The notes under the pieces are model-generated. The model searched no databases, was not told the DNA's origin, and saw only the letters and a program-made list of their open reading frames with translations. A DNA stretch of 35,438 nt from Bipalium vagum (lineage: Eukaryota), in assembly GCA_037834085.1 (NCBI GenBank), contig JBBMKC010205043.1, positions 1 through 35,438 on the forward strand, written 5' to 3'. The position numbers were made by a program, and so were the translations under genes. This document shows positions 15,291 to 32,000 of the stretch, in pieces. Each line of letters begins with the position of its first letter. The stretch's first letter is position 1.

Positions 15291-16508
15291 TTAGGAGAAC
15301 CCATAAGTAATCAATTATTTAAGTGGCAAAACAACAAAAAAAATTTAAATACATTTATTTCTATTTTTAATTGATTATATAATTTCCATCGTTTTCTTGA
15401 ACCTTTTGCCATCTTGTTGGTACAGTTTCAATTCCCTGGCCATAAAATTCTGTATCCTATGAAGAGAAATATGATTCTAGGTGAGTTTGAACATCATCGG
15501 CATTTTTAAAGTTTTGATTCTTCAGGGAATGTTCCATGGACCGGAATAAATGAAAATCCGATGGCGCTATGTCTGGAGAATATAAGGGGATTTGATAAAA
15601 CTTCCCAGTCTAGCTGCTTTGTTTTTTCTTTGGTTAACTTTGGTGTATGAAACCTTGCATTACCATGTTGCAATATTACCCCTTTTCTGTAAACCAATCC
15701 TGGTCGTTTTACGAACAACTGGTTTTGTAATCTATCAAATTGTTGGCAATACAATTCAGCCGAAACTGTTTCTCCTGATTTCAATAGTTCAAAATGAATG
15801 GGATGCCACCACATCCCACCAAACTCACAATAATACCTTCTTTAGAGTGAGGGATGATTTCGGAACGGCTAGTTGATTTGGAGAAAGCCATTGTTTGGTG
15901 AGCTTGTTTTTGTTGTTGTACAAGACCAATTTCTCGACACCAGTAACAATCCTTCTTACAAACGGATCATTTCTTTGTCTGCACAAAAGAGATGTGCAAA
16001 AAATAGATGTGGAACCCATATGTAAACCTTTCTGATTTCTTTAAGATGTCTTTGAACTGTTGACCAAGTAGCTTGAAGAGTTTTTGTTATTTCCTGGATA
16101 CTCATTTTGGGATTCTTTTCCACCGGTGCTTTTAGAGCGTCTTTATCGAACGTCCAGTTCGAGCGCTATTAGACAAGCCAAAATCACCATTTGAAGATTT
16201 TCGAAACCAATGTTGGAACTTATTGACTTTTAATACGTCTCCGTACACATCTTCTTTGTTGCAACGGTTGCATTAACAACCGATCGAAAATGAAACAGTA
16301 TGCAATGACGTAAATGTTCATCACTTGGTTGATTCTCCGCCATTTTATATCAGAATAATAAAAACGTTTGAATTTATTTATAATCAATATTCAAGGTCAA
16401 TGATTGTAATTTAACGTAATAAAATACGTGTTTATATATTCAAGGTCTGAGCTAGAAATAAGCAAACACTGCATACTAAAATAATTGATTACTTATTGGT
16501 TAGGGTAT
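15291..16508 (-). mobile_element. Near full-length mariner element with pseudogenised transposase (about 16343-15370)
   Basis: TIR core ACC(C/A)ATAAGTAATCAATTATTT at both ends, flanked by TA. Transposase reads MAENQPSDEHLRHCILFHF..., RIVTGVEKLVLYNN, FELLKSGETVSAELYCQQFDRL, ILQHGNARFH, YSPDIAPSDFHLF, RWQKVQENDGNY, with several frameshifts and decayed catalytic Asp residues. Confidence 0.92.
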
Positions 16509-17083
16509 TAGTACTAGTACTAATTTTTTCTATTAATATTACATGTATTATTGAGATTATTAATTTATTTTTATTGTTATTATCATTATTGAGTTCGCAC
16601 AAACACGACAACTAAGGATTTTTAATTATGATAAATAATAATAATATAGGGTCTATAATAATAATAAAATTAATTAAAAAGAATAATTATTTGAAAATTA
16701 AAAAAATAACAATTTATCTCGTCGAGATATCAATTAATTATTAATAATAGATCTAAAATTAAAATATTGATTTTTTTCGCTGTCAAGATAATAATTAATA
16801 ATTGATAGAAAAATTATGTAGCAATTCTCGTCGTCGAGATAATTGTATCATAATTTAGGAATTTTTATGCTATTGGATGAAATAGCCTTCCAAAAGTAGC
16901 GATTGCCGATCGTCGGCCAATCTCTATTTCTATATAAGGATAGGATTTCCTTTAAAAAATTCGACGAAGTAAAAGATAGTTTTTTAACGATTATTAATCA
17001 CTTGAAAAATTTTTATTTGACAAATTAAAGATCATTAACTCGTTAGAAGACTTTAATCAGACTATTGCTAATTTCGTTGGAAG

Positions 17084-17402
17084 TTGATTTACTATCTGTC
17101 CGTTGATAACAAAAAACATTGTGTCTGCTTGGTGAACCATTGCTGTATATGGTTAAGCAGTCAAGGTACCAAAGAAAGTTCAGATTTTTTAAAATGTATG
17201 ATGTATAAAGTATTGTATAAAATAATTCTAGACGGTCATCTGATAACGTCGGGTATTTATTGTCAGCAAATAGATCGTGTTCACGAAATAAAGCAGGAAC
17301 GTTACTCACAATTACAACAGGATAATGCAAGGAAATACAGCTAAAAAGACAGTGATAAATAAACTTGGTGGATTTGAACTAATTCCTCATTCACGATACA
17401 GT
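17084..17402 (+). mobile_element. Mariner transposase catalytic-domain fragment
   Basis: GHLITSGIYCQQIDRVHE, LQQDNARKYS and FELIPHSRYS match the mariner YCQQLDRL, HDNARPH and LPHPPYSP motifs. No TIRs were recognised. Confidence 0.75.
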
Positions 17403-22832: not shown

Positions 22833-23069
22833 ATGGCAAATAAGGATAAACAGTTACAAGATAAGTTACAAATAATAATAGCAGATCTATTGAAAGATGA
22901 TGACAACAAGTATTGTGTTGATTGTGATGCTAAAGGACCTCGGTGGGCTTCTTGGACCCTGGGAATATTTCTATGTATAAGATGTGCTGGAATTCACAGA
23001 AATCTCGGTGTACATATTTCACGAGTAAAATCTGTAAATCTTGATTCGTGGACACCGCAACAAGTGGCT
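22833..23069 (+). CDS. SMAP: SMAP ArfGAP exon 1
   Basis: MANKDKQ...[52 protein letters not shown], donor |gtagga, 46-nt intron. Confidence 0.95.
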
Positions 23070-26000
23070 GTAGGAGTTTTAGTAAAATTGTTGATTTACT
23101 TGTGTTTCATGTCAGATGCTGAAAGAAATTGGTAACAGTCGCGGAAGGGCAATATATGAGGCTAATCTTGAAGACAATTTTCGCCGTCCCCAAACCGAGT
23201 CTTCATTGGACGTCTTTATACGGGCCAAATATGAACACAGAAGATATATTGCAAAGGAATGGATTCCTCCTACTCCGAGTGTGGAACCTATAATTGAGGT
23301 GATAATGAATGTTATTTTATTGAAATATAAGAAGCTTTCAGGAAATACGGAAGTTAGATTTAAACCAAAACAAAAAACGTGTTACATGTACAGTTAACAG
23401 TGTAATAAACAGTTCAATAATTCCAATTTCTCGACGAGAGAAGCCCGTAAATGTCAAAACAATCGAGGTTGTTTTTTTAATTCTATTTTAAAACTGAAAT
23501 TTAGTCAGTTTGGGTTAAATAAATTAATGTGATGTATTTTGAATTGATGCCTAAGACACGTAATATTTCTTTCTTTTGTTCACTATCAAACATGATTTTT
23601 GATCATTCTTTACTGCACATAAACTGCTTTCTATTACAACCAGCGGTTACCTATCAGTGGCACTTAGTAAATCAACGATTTTTATCAACATTGCGCATCA
23701 ATAATTCCAGTATAATGAATATAATTAACCAAATTTAACGTGATAATGGCGAAAGGTCAGTTTAAATATGTTGATTATACATAATTAACATTCTTGGTTC
23801 TATATTTCCTTCATATACAGAATTATGCAAGATTTCTCAAAAAATATTAATAATAAAAAGGTTTAAATATTTTAAAAATCTATAAATTCAATAAATCTGT
23901 CAGTATGTCATCTTTCTCGAAAAGCGATTCTGATTGGGGAACATTGACGATATTGATCGCCGGTTGTCGTTCGTTGGCTTGCGAGCTTTCATTGTAGACA
24001 CTGTAGACGAGTTTTGATTTCTTTTTAATTTTGTGTTCATAAGCTAATTTCAGAGCCAGATCGATCATTGGGGAGATTGTTTCAAGACTGAGAGCTGAAG
24101 CGTTGTCAATTATCAATATATATTTATTGAATTTAAAGGTTTACCGAAAATGATAATCTTTCCGTTTCTTGTGAATTTTATCAATGATTTGTATTGATTA
24201 TCTTTATTTAAACCCTTAGCAGTGCGGTCCATGTAATAGTAGCAGAAATGATCGCTTTCTAAATCATAACTAATTGTAATAGTAAAACCTGTTTTTCCTT
24301 TGATGAAATTCACAAAAAATTCATGACAAAAAAAACTCACATGCAATGCATCGGATTTGCGTCTGTCAACGCCTGCAAATCGATTCTGTACGGTACTTGG
24401 CCCTTTGTGAAGATATTAAATACTTTATAACCACGCAATTTGACTGCAAAGCCCAATTTCTGTATTCGTCGAGCGATTATCCGCGATCCCCGTTTGGCGC
24501 CTGCTAAGCTTTTGGCACCTAAAATTACCATTTTTCCTGATGGGTATATTTTCACCTTTTCCAGCTTTGGAGATCTCAGTTTGGTTTCTAATATTTCCTG
24601 CACACGAGTAAAATCCGTCGACATATATCAATGGGAAAATGACGTTACAATAGATTTACCATGTTATGTTGAATGAATTCCACATCGTGACCTCGCAGAC
24701 TGATGTCCATCAAGGGCAACCTTGTGCTCAATTTCATCGAAGCTGATACATTTGTGATTTTGAAGCTAATCAAGGCTTTGTTTTGCGTTCCCTTCATGTG
24801 CTCTCCGTCCATTTTACTCATTTCGACAATGCTTGAAATATTTTTAAATAGTTAACAAAAGTTTCAAATAAAACCAGTATTATTTTAAACAAATTTTTTT
24901 AAAGAATAAATATTTTATCGAATGTTACAGTTTTAGTTTTATTGATATTTTTTCTGTAAAAATATTTTTAAATTCAGTTTCTTAAAGTATTTATTGAAAT
25001 ACAAAAATTTAATAATTTATAAATACAATATAGGGGATTTAATTTTTTGTAAATTGATATTTTCGATTATACTGATTTAATAAAATCCTATAAAATTTTT
25101 AAAATGATAATTCGATTGTAGGCTCCAAGATCATAATTCATATATGGTTTTAATTTCATACAGTATTTCAAATATTAAAATAGAAGTAAATCAGTTTAAT
25201 TATTAGGTTATTTTATTAATTCTTATTAGCATATCAAATTTTGTTTCAGGTTGCTTATAGTTAAAATTATGGAAAATAACGAAACGCTTTAAATGCTTTT
25301 CTAGTAACTTAAAGGTTTCCTTTTTCAAAGATCACCAAAATTTGTAAGTTAAAAATTTAATAAAAACTTTGTAAGTTAATCTAAAAATTATCTGACCTGA
25401 CAAATTCAATTCGATGATTAAGAAAGAAATGTATATAAGAGAGTTGAGACAAACCTCGATATATCCTCACCATAAATATGTCATCATATGTGTTGATTTT
25501 TTCTCATTATAAAGAATGAAATCCGTGCAAAATTCCTTGTTACGATTTCAACATATATTAGTACGTTTTCCCTTGAATTTCCTTCGCATACCCAATCATC
25601 CAATATTGTTCTATTAAAATACTTCCACGATTTTATATCAGCTTCATCAGCATCAACGATTGAATTATTTCTGAGTTTATCAAATAGTTCCTTGAAATCG
25701 ATGTTTTCAAATATACAATATAAATTTTCGTTTAAAAAAAAATGATAATTCATTATCTTCAAATTATCGGCAGTCTGATTCATCTAAGACCCCATTGAAT
25801 AATTGTAGATGATTTAAAGGCATTTAGAAATAGGCAACTTTGAATTTTCAAAAATTGAAATGAATCGACAAAAGGCTTTTTTAGTGTGTTTTAAATCTTT
25901 TATTTTCTATGCACATTACAGTTTTAAAAATTTGGTATATTGTTGAAACAATAATTAATTGTAAATTTATAGCTTTCCTTAAAGATTCATCATTGGATAT

Positions 26001-29000
26001 ATTAGGCTGGCAAGAAAGTTCGTGCGCCCTTTAATGACAAGTTAAAATTAAAATTGTTTTATTGACAAAACAATTTAAATCAACTATGTTTACCATTATT
26101 ATTAATGATCTTTCTACTAAATTCATGATACCATGTTCGTAGAACTCCTTTGGTTTATTCGCAAAATTGTCAATGTCTCTTCTGACAGACTCCTCATCAT
26201 TGAATGTTTTCCTTTTCAAGGAATTCCGGGTGATCAAAGATACATGAAGCTTGGCATTGTCGTGTTGGTAGACAACACTTCCGATTTGTCAATTGGGAGC
26301 ACTACATATCAGAATTGATAACAGTTCATAATAAATTAAACCTTTAAAATCGCACCAAGAAGAAGGCATGATCTTTGGGGGGCGCATCCATGTCTTTATT
26401 GACGATTCTGGTGGCTCACCAGTACAACCCTTGGACCTTTTACGGAACACATTGTCATAGATAACTCACTTTTCATCACTGGTATCAAATTACTTCAAGA
26501 ATGGATGGTTTTCTTGTCGTTTCAGCAATGAATCACATATTGATATACGTTCCATAAATTGGCCTTCATTAATTTATGCGGTACCCATGGTTAGAGTTTC
26601 GAAACGAATACTAGATTACACAGTCTTTTCTAACGCTGTATGCGATGTCTTTAGTATTTTACGATTTCCCGAACCGTGTTCGATGGATTACTTTCAATTA
26701 TAGACTCAATAGCGCTTGGCTCAATGTGAGATGGGTGTCCTGAGCGGGATTAATTTTTCATATCGAATGCTGTACAACTAGAGTTGGTATACATTTTTGG
26801 TATACTTGTACTGATAAAACATCATCTCAATATACTTAACATATTTTCATATGTTCATACGAGGTTCGCTTACCTTTTTAAATTAATATAATATTTATAA
26901 ATAATATGATACTTAACTCTTTCAAAATCAAACACCAAAAAATGACGAAAATGTAATTTTTTCTTGCATAATGATATTGTATTTATCACATAAGACTATT
27001 ATATTATTTAAACAGCAACTAAAAAACAGTATTGATTTCTTTTTATCGTAAACATACGTGATCCGATTTTTTCGAATATTCTATGATATCTTTGTGTAGT
27101 AATCTCATTATCATATCTTACAAATGAACAATGAACTGTCAAATAAACCTTTCAAATAAAAAATTTTTTTGACCTTATAAGTAATTATCTGAAACTCGAT
27201 ATTGGTTCATTAAATTAATCTTAATCGATTTATTAATCATAATTTCATCAAAAATAACAAGAATCATTTTAACCTATGAACTTTAATTTAACTTTGACTT
27301 TTTAATTAAACCATAGAAAGATCAATAATCGTTTGTCAACAATCAATGGGGATTCACTGTATTAATAACTTTAGTAAATAATAATTAACGCTAACCGATT
27401 CTCATTGATATTTTATTATTAAAAGTAAGCTTGGAATATTAGCTTCTATCTTTTAACAGACCGATGCTACCAAGTCGCAAAATAATGGGAATAAAATCGA
27501 TTTGCTCGGCTTAGAAAATGATACTGGTACATCGGTTAATAACGATGAATCATTTGGTGATTTTATTTTTGCTACTCAATCGAACTCGTCTTCAACCAAA
27601 AGCCCCATTATAAGTTCCTCGGTTATCAGCGAAAATAAAGCCCAATCGGCTGTTGACGACTTAATGGGTCTCAGTGAGTTGAATACACAGCCCGATCCAT
27701 TTTCCAATGCAACAGAATTGAACGAAACATCTGGCTTGTTTCTGGGTTCGTCGTCGGTTATGCAAAATAGTTGCTGTAAAATGGACAAAAATTCCATTTT
27801 AGCATTGTACAATAACAATAATAACAGCAGCAATAACATGAGACCACAGGTCTTCGGACAGATGAGCAATTCTTCTGGTTGGGCCACAATGCCAGGATCA
27901 ACATATCACAATGGTTATGTACAGACAGGTACTGTTATTGTATTTGGAAAATTTAGTATGATTTCTGTTACAGATTTCCAATCTCAGGCACTTGGTAGAG
28001 GGGCAACTAATAGGGGTTATCATTTATCGCAGTTTGGTCAAAGTAGTGCATTTGGAGATCAGAGTAATCCTTTTTTCAACAATAGTTCAATAATTCCCAC
28101 ACGACAGACTATATCACTCTCATCTATGGTAAGTTTAATATTTAATTTTTGTTAATTTATCTGTAATTATCAATTTTAAAAATATTTTCTTTTATAATGT
28201 TAAGTTGATAAGAAAATAATGCTTAATACATTCAAACTTTATAATAGATTTTATGAAAAAAATTTGTTTGAAAGCATTAATTTATGTACAATTTTAAAGC
28301 TTTGAAATTGTTTTACATTTCCATAAGTTTTACTTTACTATACTATTAGAAAAATATCAAATACAATCAATTACACTGTACAAGTTACAATTTGACAGAA
28401 ATTTTATTGAGATCACTCGTAAAACCAGTGATTCGACAAGGGTGCATCAAAATGAGTACCGTGCAAAACTTTTTCAAAACATTTGGAGTAGAAATGAGAG
28501 CGTCGAAAGTGGTACAGGTCTTGGGCGTTCCACGGAAGTAGGCAATGATTAATTAAAGATCTTGGTCGATCTATTTGTTATTGAGAAATATGCAAGGCCA
28601 CGATGTTTCAAAAATAAAAAAATCCAATTGCTTAAATCTCCAATACAAAGGCATGTATTACTGCCAATATCTTTCACCAATCTTTTTGAGTGGAAAAAAA
28701 TAAATATTTTTATCTTTTTGGAAGCTTTATGAAGAATAGCATGATTGACGCATTAAACTTATGCGATCAACTTAATATTATTTCTAAGTACCGTTCTAAA
28801 AACGGAGACAAACTAATTTGTTTGAGCATGAAATAAAGATTTGAAATATAGTTATTATTATTTGTATTATTCTATTTATCAATATGTTTATATGTTAAAT
28901 ACATGGTTTTTTATAATTTAAATAAGTCATTTTATAAATATAAAAAATTTACCTCTATACAATGTGAAATCAACATATGACATTCTAAAATTACATAAAT

Positions 29001-32000
29001 ACAAATTTTCTTAAATATTATTACCTCTCAATAACATCAAACCTCCTTATAAAGTCAAAATCCTCGTACCGAAGGCTGATGCTATAAAGAGGTTTTACTG
29101 TATTGTGTAAAAGTTTACAGTATCCTTAAGCAGTGGATACTTGGAATACTAAACTGAATATATATTAAAGAAATAATGGAATAAGGTTACCTAGGTGACA
29201 ATAGGAAACTGCTTATGACTTGTTGGATTCCACACCATTGATGAAAAGCCTACAGCAGAACTATGATATTAATACATAAGACGTTTATGATCGGATAATA
29301 TATTAGGGTTTTCTAATTGAAATGTCGTTTTTTAAATAATATTTAATTAACTTGTTTTAATATTTTTTATATCGTCCATAATAAAAAACTGTTAAATTCA
29401 ATTTAAAATCAAAGATCGATGTAAAGTGTAAACTATAATTAAAAAACTTTATCCTATTAAATTTATTTAACATATTTAAAAAAGAATGAAAAATTTAAAA
29501 TGACGCTCATATCCGGCATTATATGAGTTAAAACGGGGATCAAATTTCACAGTTGACACTAAAAATATCAAAGATTTTTACGGTGAAATACTTGATGTTC
29601 GCAAATGGTAATCTCAGTTTGCAGAACACAGGGTCATCGACAACCTGTGGTGGATAATGATGTGTTTAAGGATATCATCGAAATAGATCCTAGACAAACA
29701 TTAGAAGAATTGTCTTTTCTATTAAATTGTAGTATCAGCAGTATATGGAACCACATAAAACTGAGGCAAAAGAAATAGGTTCGGTGTTTGGGTTCCTCAT
29801 GATTTAACTAGAACTGGAAAATAATAATTGTTATTATGGATTCCAGATCTGTCACTCATTATTTATTCCAAATTTAAAGGAATCATTCTTCAAATGGATT
29901 GTGACTGAAGATGATAAGTGAATAATGTATGAGAATATCCACATAACAAAAATCAGTGGTTATCTCCAGCCCAAACCGCTGTACCAGTGTCGAAAACAGG
30001 ACTTCATACAAAGAAGGTCTTATTGAGTGTCTCCTGGGATTACAAAGGAGTAACTCACTTTGAATTATTAGAATTTGGTCAAACAAAAAATTCCGATGTA
30101 TATAGTAAAATTATGACCGTTTGAGAGATACATTAATTGTGAAATGTCCTGCATTGATCAATAGAAACAAAATAATTTTTCATCACGATTTTTTCAAATC
30201 ATCGTATTGTGTAGACGCTTATGCAAACTTTAAAAATATTCCTGGAAAATAAGAAAGATTGCTTATCTTCTTTGCAAGTCTTTATACACCTGAAGAATTC
30301 TTAATAAGAGCGACAAACAGAAATAACTGGATTTTTAACATGAAGTGGTAAATTTTGCTTTTGCAATGATATCATACGCTTTGAAACACGTGATTTAAAT
30401 ATCATAAACTGTGCGAAATAAATTATGTTCCCTAACTCTCAATAAAAATACAATATGGTTATTTTTTATAAGTAAAGTAGCCAGTTCCAAAATAATAGTA
30501 AGTTATTTTATCAAATTTTACGACTTTCTATTGCATTAATATCGCTATAGGGTTACAAAATCTCTGATTTATCCAGAAAAAGTAACCGAGATGCATATAA
30601 GTTACCTCAATAGGTAATATCTTTTCTTAAATAAAATTGAAAAAAATAATAACAGCAGATGGTATAAGGAAATAATATTCAATTTCATCTGTGAAAAACA
30701 CTGGTACTCAAATAGTTGTCAAGTCTATTGAAACACTCTTCTCACTAGATTACTTACCACTTTTATGTAACATTTTATTTGAATGTTTATAAATAACGCT
30801 GGTAATGTTTTATTTTCTATTGTGATTGATTTAAAATTTCTCATGTAAACCAGCGTTTTAAGGAAATATTCTAATGGAATAAAGTCACTCAGTCTAAGGA
30901 TGAGGATTTTTTGAGAGAATTCTTTCATACCGAGAGAACTTGTTTCTTTGTTTGTGAGTGTCATGTGGCATTCTCTTGATGAATCACAAATTGTCACAAT
31001 CCTTTAGCTCTATTTGTGTCTATGAAAACTTAATCAACACCAGTTCTTCGTTTCAAAAAGTTAAACAAATGAAGTCCAATGAAAGACTTCCAGAAATAAG
31101 GCAGTCAGTAATTGGATTAGATTAAATTTTAAATTACCTAAATCAGTTATACAGTGTGTTCCATATGTCTCCGTGAAAAGTAAACTTAAATATCTTTCAC
31201 TAAATTCAATCGATTGAAATTTCTATTTATATAATATTAAAGTATGTAAGTTTAAATTTTGTTTTAATATTTTAAAATTAGATTTAACAACTGCCGCTTG
31301 ATTTGAAGTTAAGAATCAAAACTGTACTTTTAATGGCCAAATTCAACTCAATTTGTGTTTTTAAACGGAAATTAAATGCCGAATTTGAGAAAACCTCACC
31401 AAGTGAAAGTGCTATGAGACTTTATCCTGGAAGACCAAGGGTGATCAAAGAAAATGAAGTTCAGAAAATTATTGAAGTTATTGAAAGTGATCCACAATGC
31501 AGTGTTCGATCTGTTGAAACCACCTGCTCCATTTCATGAACAACAACCCAACGAATTATGAGAGAACAGTTATCATTGAAACCCTTTAAGATCCATTTCA
31601 CGCTCCTGAGCATTTTTCAACAAATATACCACGGTATCTTAACGCTTATTTCCCGAACAGGTGGTTCAATTCGATGGGCTTCCAGCTCACCAGATTTAAC
31701 TCCTCTTGACTTCTATTTATGGGGCCATTTAAAGAATAAAATAAACAAATCTGAAATCAAAAATATTGATGATTTGAAAACAAAAATCACCGAAGAAATA
31801 AAGTGTTACCACAGAAACTTTGAATAGCGTATTTTTAAATATTGTAAAAAGGATGAATTTATGTATATCAGTTAATGGTAGTCATTTCAAAAAATTGTTG
31901 TAAATTTTTTTATGAAATACAAATTAAAAGATTTGTCTTCAATTTTATAAGACAAGCGATTAAATATCTCAACATGCTTAAGAATTATTAAGTTTACCTT

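What the first reader, a model, noticed from the sequence alone, without database searches (positions are those of the whole stretch)
24145..24690. TATA-reading surface of the TBP-like protein is remodelled while the cofactor-facing helix is kept
By hand alignment, the four Phe positions that intercalate into TATA (YNPKRF, LIFSSGK, YEPELF, LIFVSGK) read EFIQHNM, KIYPSGK, YDLESDH and KFTRNGK, so none is cleanly retained. TRF2 usually keeps the last one. The beta strands carry charged residues (LETKL, LEKVKI). The basic helix ARRIQKLGF is conserved, and the C-terminal stirrup keeps acidic residues (YDLE) at positions that contact TFIIB in TBP. Inference: it does not bind TATA and may be recruited through proteins, or act as a decoy or adaptor for general factors.
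Basis: partly seen in the sequence, partly recalled or inferred. Interest (0 to 1): 0.7.

Follow-up and report, generated by a model that had tools for sequence, protein, structure and literature searches.

The report
Flatworm TRF2 copy lacking TATA-gripping phenylalanines
This apparently intact, fast-evolving flatworm copy of the known factor TRF2 has none of the four phenylalanines that TBP uses to grip the TATA box, so it likely does not read TATA and is probably brought to promoters by partner proteins, as ordinary TRF2 is, though its DNA-facing side is rebuilt further than in the TRF2 proteins compared here.

Summary
The observation mostly holds. The gene is a predicted four-exon, 252-codon open gene (24821-23880, minus strand) inside an intron of an ArfGAP gene. 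The four intercalating Phe sites read Met54, Tyr72, Asp146 and Thr173 in 16 of 16 alignments. The saddle is not charge-reversed: net +6, against +7 in TBP and +5 to +6 in TRF2.

It descends from TRF2, not TBP. It groups with two sister genes of the same assembly (100/99) inside TRF2 (100/99), and a grouping with the host's TBPs is rejected (p 0.001). The sisters share Asp and Thr at the last two Phe sites, a repeat-2 insertion and an intron, so the remodelling is a lineage trait and not decay of this copy. Three branches end in an acidic ILxxLL tail.

'No TATA binding, protein-recruited, possible TFIIA sink' is textbook TRF2. What is new is the loss of the fourth Phe, the insertion, the tail and several paralogues. 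Expression and binding are untested. The assembly is doubled genome-wide (old duplication or two species), so copy numbers are uncertain.

The parts
24660..24821 (-). Exon 1 (predicted): start codon, residues 1-54, first core Asn24, ends at Met54 (first Phe site)
   Evidence: Pfam TBP E 0.0085; identical in a second study at 24648-24864
24598..24659 (-). Intron 1 (62 nt, GT-AG, phase 0), within one codon of the first intron of sister genes L021 and L024; absent from the host's TBP-type genes L001, L004, L006
24341..24597 (-). Exon 2 (predicted): rest of lobe 1, Tyr72, basic helix, second core Asn115
   Evidence: Pfam TBP E 5e-9; AlphaFold2 model pLDDT 87, the 34 top Foldseek rows are all TBP but none reaches E 0.001
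24544..24546 (-). Tyr72 at the second Phe site (TBP F116; Trp in most TRF2)
   Evidence: 16 of 16 alignments
24457..24495 (-). Basic helix Lys89-Lys101, the surface that TFIIA, TAF1, Mot1 and Brf1 use on TBP
   Evidence: role from PMC7221094
24270..24340 (-). Intron 2 (71 nt, GT-AG, phase 2), at a site shared by TRF2-type and TBP-type host genes
24145..24269 (-). Exon 3 (predicted): stirrup, Asp146, lineage insertion, Thr173
24251..24268 (-). TFIIB-facing stirrup: Asp142 and Glu144 acidic, Pro187 site lost; Asp146 at the third Phe site (shared with L021, L024)
24206..24238 (-). About 10-residue insertion in lobe 2, shared with L021, L024, L019 and P0011, absent from the TBP and TRF2 references
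   Evidence: a low-confidence loop in the L019 model
24170..24172 (-). Thr173 at the fourth Phe site (Thr also in L021 and L024; Phe or Tyr in 17 of 17 TRF2 references)
   Evidence: identical in a second study
24095..24144 (-). Intron 3 (50 nt, GT-AG, phase 1), at a site shared by the intron-bearing host TBP-family genes modelled
23880..24094 (-). Exon 4 (predicted): last helix of the core, 45-residue tail, stop codon
23889..23906 (-). C-terminal acidic ILxxLL motif (residues 245-250), also ending L024 and the L019 family
23468..27459 (+). About 4-kb intron of a SMAP-type ArfGAP gene (exons from 22836 to about 28150) in which the TRF2-derived gene lies antisense

Best explanation
This is a predicted intact, fast-evolving paralogue of TRF2 (TBPL1/TLF) in a free-living flatworm that has lost all four intercalating phenylalanines, likely cannot read TATA, and probably acts as a protein-tethered platform for starting RNA polymerase II at a subset of TATA-less promoters. 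Shown by sequence and trees: descent from TRF2, an open reading frame under canonical splicing, Met/Tyr/Asp/Thr at the Phe sites, a kept basic helix, a still basic saddle, and an insertion and ILxxLL tail shared with paralogues. Inferred: the basic helix binds TFIIA or similar acidic partners; the saddle holds DNA backbone without sequence reading or kinking; a promoter-bound factor recruits it, as M1BP does for fly TRF2, with the tail or insertion as candidate tethers; TFIIB, perhaps one of the host's diverged copies, docks on the altered stirrup. A germline or developmental role is guessed from other animals' TRF2 only.
For: Trees: host clade of 5 at 99/94 inside TRF2 at 98/99 (39 rows). Window protein with L021 and L024 at 100/99, beside trematode TRF2 at 91/89 (29 rows). 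Without its sisters it still falls in TRF2 at 100/98 (24 rows). AU tests reject a clade with the host's canonical TBPs (p 0.0012), with all five host TBP-type genes (p 0.027) and with three other long branches (p 0.0024). Eight residue states are shared with L021 and L024 and absent from 31 references. Intron 1 is TRF2-type. Signs of selection: no stop in 252 codons, about 17 expected at its composition; GC 39% against 20-25% in the flanks; 15 of 26 family-invariant columns kept against 46 of 141 others (Fisher p 0.014). 6 of 8 lobe-1 cofactor positions equal TBP. L019, the most diverged relative, still models as a whole TBP saddle (pLDDT 84, best E 8e-11). ILxxLL ends 3 clade branches and 0 of 165 other TBP/TRF2 hits; shuffle chance 0.0002-0.0007 each, motif chosen after seeing it. 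TRF2 behaviour: PMC4180970, PMC5737516, PMC3142196.
Against: The literal TRF2 residue pattern (gap, Trp, His, Phe) is matched at 0 of 4 sites, and only 6 of 20 TRF2-diagnostic columns hold the TRF2 state (2 TBP state, 12 neither). A position just outside the TRF2 crown is not rejected when the sisters are left out (p 0.23). It keeps fewer invariant columns (15 of 26) than L021 (20) or L024 (19) and has the longer branch, so constraint is relaxed. The stirrup has lost both prolines, which weakens the TFIIB step. The tail motif is absent from P0011 and was not found in L021, whose last exon is unresolved. No close orthologue was found among 1.84 billion representatives or in the metagenome scan, so no dN/dS test was possible. 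The splicing is predicted and the whole spliced protein was not folded.
Confidence: 0.6

Rival explanations
1. Decoy: it is expressed but cannot build a working initiation complex, and titrates TFIIA, Mot1 or TAF1 away from TBP and the more conservative TRF2 copies.
For: The lobe-1 cofactor surface is better kept (6 of 8) than the TFIIB stirrup (1 of 3 identical, prolines lost). Vertebrate TLF is reported to repress by sequestering TFIIA (PMC3142196 passages).
Against: Both stirrup acids are kept as Asp and Glu, both core Asn are kept, and the saddle stays basic; a pure sink would not need these. The two roles are not exclusive in TRF2.
Confidence: 0.17
2. Repurposed paralogue acting outside initiation (chromatin, RNA binding or cytoplasmic), keeping the fold and a basic surface.
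For: Long branch and relaxed constraint. Tyr is the residue that bacterial TBP-lobe proteins use at this site for RNA-DNA or RNA (PMC7221094). Diverged fly TRF2 paralogues with non-nuclear location are recalled, not retrieved.
Against: The cofactor helix and stirrup acids are retained, which points to general transcription factors as partners.
Confidence: 0.13
3. Young pseudogene or redundant duplicate drifting after a genome-wide doubling.
For: 10 of 16 housekeeping families checked are doubled. Dead copies exist in the related L019 family.
Against: About 1.6 changes per site on its own branch with no stop or frameshift, three canonical introns, raised GC and enriched conservation at invariant columns. 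The Phe-site changes are shared with sisters.
Confidence: 0.07
4. Independent derivative of TBP that lost the phenylalanines by convergence, as in dinoflagellates.
For: It has TBP length at the first Phe site where 17 of 17 TRF2 have a gap. The host has several diverged TBP-type genes.
Against: AU tests, shared insertion and residues with the Trp-bearing genes L021 and L024, TRF2-type intron 1. The extra residue lies at an intron junction. Lobe 2 scores -0.3 bits on a TBP profile.
Confidence: 0.03

Closest known systems
TRF2 / TBPL1 / TLF of bilaterians (named hits: Limanda P0010, Phallusia P0013, Ciona P0019, Tetranychus P0046, Blomia P0062; unnamed trematode protein P0036 of Dicrocoelium)
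   Same: Descent; three Phe sites altered; basic lobe-1 helix and acidic stirrup residues; Lys at the Leu205 site; one-residue deletion after the last strand; 24-34% core identity.
   Different: Fourth Phe is Thr, second site Tyr not Trp, third Asp not His; about 10-residue insertion in lobe 2; stirrup prolines lost; acidic ILxxLL tail; several paralogues in one assembly.
Canonical TBP (host L001, L002; PDB 1ytb, 1cdw)
   Same: Two-lobed saddle, both core Asn, SGK turn, basic helix.
   Different: 0 of 4 Phe; 8 of 33 DNA-facing positions identical; 24-28% identity; not one clade with them.
Dinoflagellate TBP-like factor of Crypthecodinium cohnii
   Same: All four Phe lost, per PMC4180970.
   Different: There it is the only TBP-family protein and of separate origin; here canonical TBPs coexist. 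Not compared by sequence here.
Drosophila TRF2-derived paralogues TRF4 and TRF5 (recalled, from no call)
   Same: Lineage-specific, fast-evolving duplicates of TRF2.
   Different: Independent origin; three searches did not retrieve papers on them, so the likeness is only a lead.

Membership tests
TBP-fold family (PF00352) | Two tandem TBP lobes | tested here: met
   Lobe 1 Pfam E 5e-9; lobe 2 above all 500 shuffles on TRF2 profiles; relative L019 models as a whole saddle
Canonical TBP | Four intercalating Phe | tested here: not met
   Met, Tyr, Asp, Thr
Canonical TBP | Clade with TBP orthologues | tested here: not met
   AU p 0.0012 and 0.027
TRF2/TBPL1 | Falls in the TRF2 clade | tested here: met
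   98/99, 100/98 and 100/99 in three trees; a place just outside the crown is not rejected without the sisters (p 0.23)
TRF2/TBPL1 | First three Phe sites altered (signature of PMC4180970) | tested here: met
   Met54, Tyr72, Asp146; the usual Trp and His are not present
TRF2/TBPL1 | Fourth Phe kept | tested here: not met
   Thr173; Phe or Tyr in 17 of 17 references. Hence filed as a TRF2-derived variant, not a canonical TRF2
TRF2/TBPL1 | Bilaterian host | tested here: met
   COX1 genes read by the flatworm code, table 9; neighbour gene's best hits are animal SMAP
TRF2/TBPL1 | TRF2-type intron before the third strand of lobe 1 | tested here: inconclusive
   Shared within one codon with L021 and L024, absent from host TBP-type genes; its presence in other animals' TRF2 is recalled, and only hinted by an insertion at that site in P0147
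TRF2/TBPL1 | Binds TFIIA and TFIIB | not testable with these tools
   Only residue conservation was assessed
TRF2/TBPL1 | No sequence-specific DNA or TATA binding; works at TATA-less promoters | not testable with these tools
   Needs EMSA, SELEX or ChIP

The most novel reading that the evidence does not exclude
A flatworm lineage has split TRF2 into a family of specialised initiation factors that have given up minor-groove intercalation, gained a lobe-2 insertion and an acidic ILxxLL tail as tethers, and pair with the host's diverged TFIIB and TFIIA copies to form several parallel, promoter-class-specific Pol II initiation systems.
Probability: 0.2. Interest if true: 0.7.

Novelty: new variant of a known kind. 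Interest (0 to 1): 0.4.

Why it matters
How TRF2 finds promoters without sequence-specific DNA binding is still open (PMC4422821 passages). A natural series in one lineage (gap/Trp/Asp/Thr in L021 and L024, Met/Tyr/Asp/Thr here, gap/Tyr/Asn/Phe in L019) suggests that even the last intercalating Phe is dispensable, and offers candidate tethers to test by RNAi and pull-down in a flatworm. Four searches found no paper on flatworm TRF2 paralogues, and a 2026 cestode paper says TRF2 has not been systematically assessed there (PMC13134418 passage). The core inference, a TBP-like protein that does not read TATA, has long been established for TRF2.

Tried and rejected
No RNA holder listed; this says nothing on expression. 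Word-based homologue search with exon 2 found nothing. The three best hits of the HMMER scan were internally duplicated entries, not close relatives. A profile of clade exons found only P0011 and P0150. The Atlas gave no result. Complex prediction of the L019 tail on the L019 saddle: no answer, score 0.12 against a mark of 0.34. A Pol II-specific expansion, suggested by several TFIIB, Brf1, TFIIA-gamma and RPB2 copies, was rejected as the sole cause: chaperonin and SMAP genes are doubled too (30 of 39 chaperonin matches fetched). One genome versus two species: the second study's contigs did not cover unique parts of the second SMAP copy, which is inconclusive. No TBP-like remnant in the first 6 kb of the second SMAP copy's 10.8-kb contig, which hold the matching intron. 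His147 as a shifted TRF2 His was rejected, since both sisters have Asp at the ungapped site. An upstream 99-codon frame (25783-25484) gave only a weak Utp25 hit below cut-off and was not tied to the gene. Earlier-findings look-ups by words, by place with words and by sequence were empty. Dropped rows: 9 near-redundant rows of 48 for the tree; 24 and 29 of 48 rows used; L021's last exon is provisional and masked.

Full report
Gene and setting. The finding covers part of a gene on the minus strand. Exons 24821-24660, 24597-24341, 24269-24145 and 24094-23880, joined at GT-AG introns of 62, 71 and 50 nt, give one open frame of 252 codons. The splicing is predicted; no transcript was seen. The gene lies antisense in a 4-kb intron of a SMAP-type ArfGAP gene. 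Two low-depth contigs of a second study match 370 nt of it without a difference, so those parts are not assembly errors. The host is a rhabditophoran flatworm. One COX1 reads AAA as Asn at conserved motifs (table 9); the COX1 from which the two nuclear copies tested derive uses ATA at conserved Ile sites. Earlier notes on this genome also say flatworm.

The observation. Numbering follows yeast TBP, anchored by Arg105 and Phe116 (PMC7221094); the lists of contact positions are recalled from TBP structures. The Phe sites hold Met54, Tyr72, Asp146 and Thr173 in 16 of 16 alignments. So no Phe is left, but one aromatic is. In 17 TRF2 references the sites read gap (17), Trp (14), His (11) and Phe (15, plus 2 Tyr). 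These references were picked from the 150 best hits; 5 are named TBPL1-like by their sources and the rest were assigned by motif and tree. Both core Asn are kept. At 33 DNA-facing positions the protein equals TBP at 8, against 11-16 for 8 TRF2 references, yet its net charge is +6 (TBP +7, TRF2 +5 to +6). The saddle has lost its hydrophobic grip, not its basic character. The lobe-1 cofactor surface equals TBP at 6 of 8 positions. The stirrup keeps two acids but loses Pro187, invariant in 31 of 31 references, and Pro191.

What it is. With the whole predicted protein as query, 8 of the 9 best hits among 151 proteins were TRF2-type or the unnamed P0011 (read with the tree). Searching the assembly with a named TBPL1 exposed more relatives. 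L021 and L024 are intron-bearing genes with the TRF2 Trp. L019 is an intronless gene with at least six related loci at 84-98% identity, some broken, and P0011 is its orthologue elsewhere. Trees place the window protein with these genes (99/94; 100/99), inside TRF2 and beside trematode TRF2 (96/73; 91/89). Without its sisters it still falls in TRF2 (100/98), though a place just outside the crown is not rejected (p 0.23). Clades with the host's TBPs or with other long branches are rejected (p 0.0012, 0.027, 0.0024). Eight residue states, among them Asp at the third and Thr at the fourth Phe site, are shared with L021 and L024 and found in none of 31 references. So are a lobe-2 insertion and intron 1, which the host's TBP-type genes lack. 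The rebuilt second lobe is therefore an inherited trait of a flatworm TRF2 branch. Against a tidy assignment: only 6 of 20 TRF2-diagnostic columns keep the TRF2 state.

Is it alive? It has no stop where about 17 are expected, GC 39% against 20-25% flanks, and 15 of 26 family-invariant columns kept against 46 of 141 others (p 0.014). L021 keeps 20 and L024 19, so constraint is present but relaxed. A model of exon 2 alone has pLDDT 87 and matches only TBP in its 34 top rows, none at E 0.001. L019 models as a whole saddle with the insertions as loose loops. The whole window protein was not folded, so residue placement rests on alignment.

A feature not noted before. The window protein, L024 and the L019 family end in an acidic ILxxLL after unalignable linkers; 0 of 165 other TBP/TRF2 hits do, and 2 end in a looser LxxLL. 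Shuffle chances are 0.0002-0.0007 each, with the motif chosen after the fact. P0011 lacks it and L021's end is unresolved. A protein-binding role is inference.

How it most likely works. TRF2 does not bind TATA, shows no sequence-specific binding, and binds TFIIA and TFIIB (PMC4180970, parts 1-2 of 3 read). It is recruited by M1BP in flies (PMC5737516, abstract) and can repress by sequestering TFIIA (PMC3142196, passages). I infer the same here: recruitment by a promoter-bound partner, TFIIA on the basic helix, non-specific backbone contact, and TFIIB on an altered stirrup (0.6). Rivals: decoy 0.17, non-initiation role 0.13, pseudogene 0.07, TBP-derived 0.03. No binding or activity was shown.

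Copy-number caveat. The assembly holds several TBP-type genes, TFIIB-like genes, two Brf1 and two TFIIA-gamma. But 10 of 16 housekeeping families checked are doubled too, mostly at 72-81% nucleotide identity, and 6 are single (subunit names are my assignment from recalled motifs). A second flatworm COX1 at 79% is present. An old genome duplication and a two-species mix both fit. L021 and L024 (48% identical) may be such a pair; the window gene (36% and 32% to them) and the L019 family are additional in either case.

Novelty. Loss of all four Phe is known in a dinoflagellate TBP-like factor (PMC4180970). Searches found no account of flatworm TRF2 paralogues; PMC13134418 (passages) treats cestode TBP1/TBP2 and says TRF2 was not systematically assessed there. 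Also seen: PMC7221094 (passages, parts 2 and 4 of 11), PMC4422821 and PMC4909293 (passages); other papers as listings only. The supplements of PMC4180970 and PMC7221094 were not read and may list flatworm TRF2 sequences. Interest 0.4.

Noticed in passing
G000 loci L068-L070, L074-L075, L080-L109, L064: Most housekeeping genes checked come in pairs at about 72-81% nucleotide identity, while Pol I and Pol III large subunits and two chaperonin subunits are single; old genome duplication or two flatworm species in one assembly.
   Followed up: partly
L053 (C253947) and L054 (C246471); L055: Two different flatworm-code COX1 genes at 79% identity; the two nuclear copies tested derive from L054. L055 looks like a non-flatworm COX1, perhaps prey.
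   Followed up: partly
L019, L018, L025, L032, L034, L036, L066: Intronless, very diverged TRF2-derived family, likely a retrogene, spread as at least seven loci, some with stops; orthologue P0011 elsewhere; keeps the fourth Phe but has lost the acidic stirrup pattern.
   Followed up: partly
L002, L004, L005, L006, L009, L010, L012: Several TBP-type paralogues, from near-canonical intronless L002 to diverged L005 and L006 (L006 has Tyr at the first Phe site).
   Followed up: partly
L044, L046, L049, L050; L041, L047; L051, L052: One canonical and two or three diverged TFIIB-like genes, two Brf1 and two TFIIA-gamma genes.
   Followed up: partly
L021:1836-2000: The last exon of the Trp-bearing TRF2 gene L021 does not join in a convincing frame at the conserved donor; an alternative donor or a lesion is possible. 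Its third exon is identical in protein to P0150 from another source.
   Followed up: partly
L079 (C211054:1528-1998): Very diverged RNA polymerase largest-subunit-like frame with one stop and very low GC3, unlike the host's RPA1, RPB1 and RPC1; possibly of viral or plasmid origin.
   Followed up: no
window 22836-28150 (+) and L064: The SMAP ArfGAP gene has a second copy with one more intron and without the nested gene; that copy is closer to the outside relative P0152.
   Followed up: partly
window 15506-15841, 17072-17344, 26031-26465, 31288-31827: Mariner/Tc1-like transposase remnants; Pfam Transposase_1 for the first only, the others by eye.
   Followed up: no
window 25484-25783 (-): 99-codon frame from ATG in the same SMAP intron, weak Utp25_C hit below cut-off (E 0.01).
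   Followed up: no
L038-L040: Three 18S rRNA loci only 74-80% alike, probably decayed copies; motifs recalled as triclad-like.
   Followed up: no
window 23880-24821 and L005: Third-position GC is high (0.45 and 0.55) against 0.20-0.36 for the other TBP-family, TFIIB and SMAP stretches measured.
   Followed up: no
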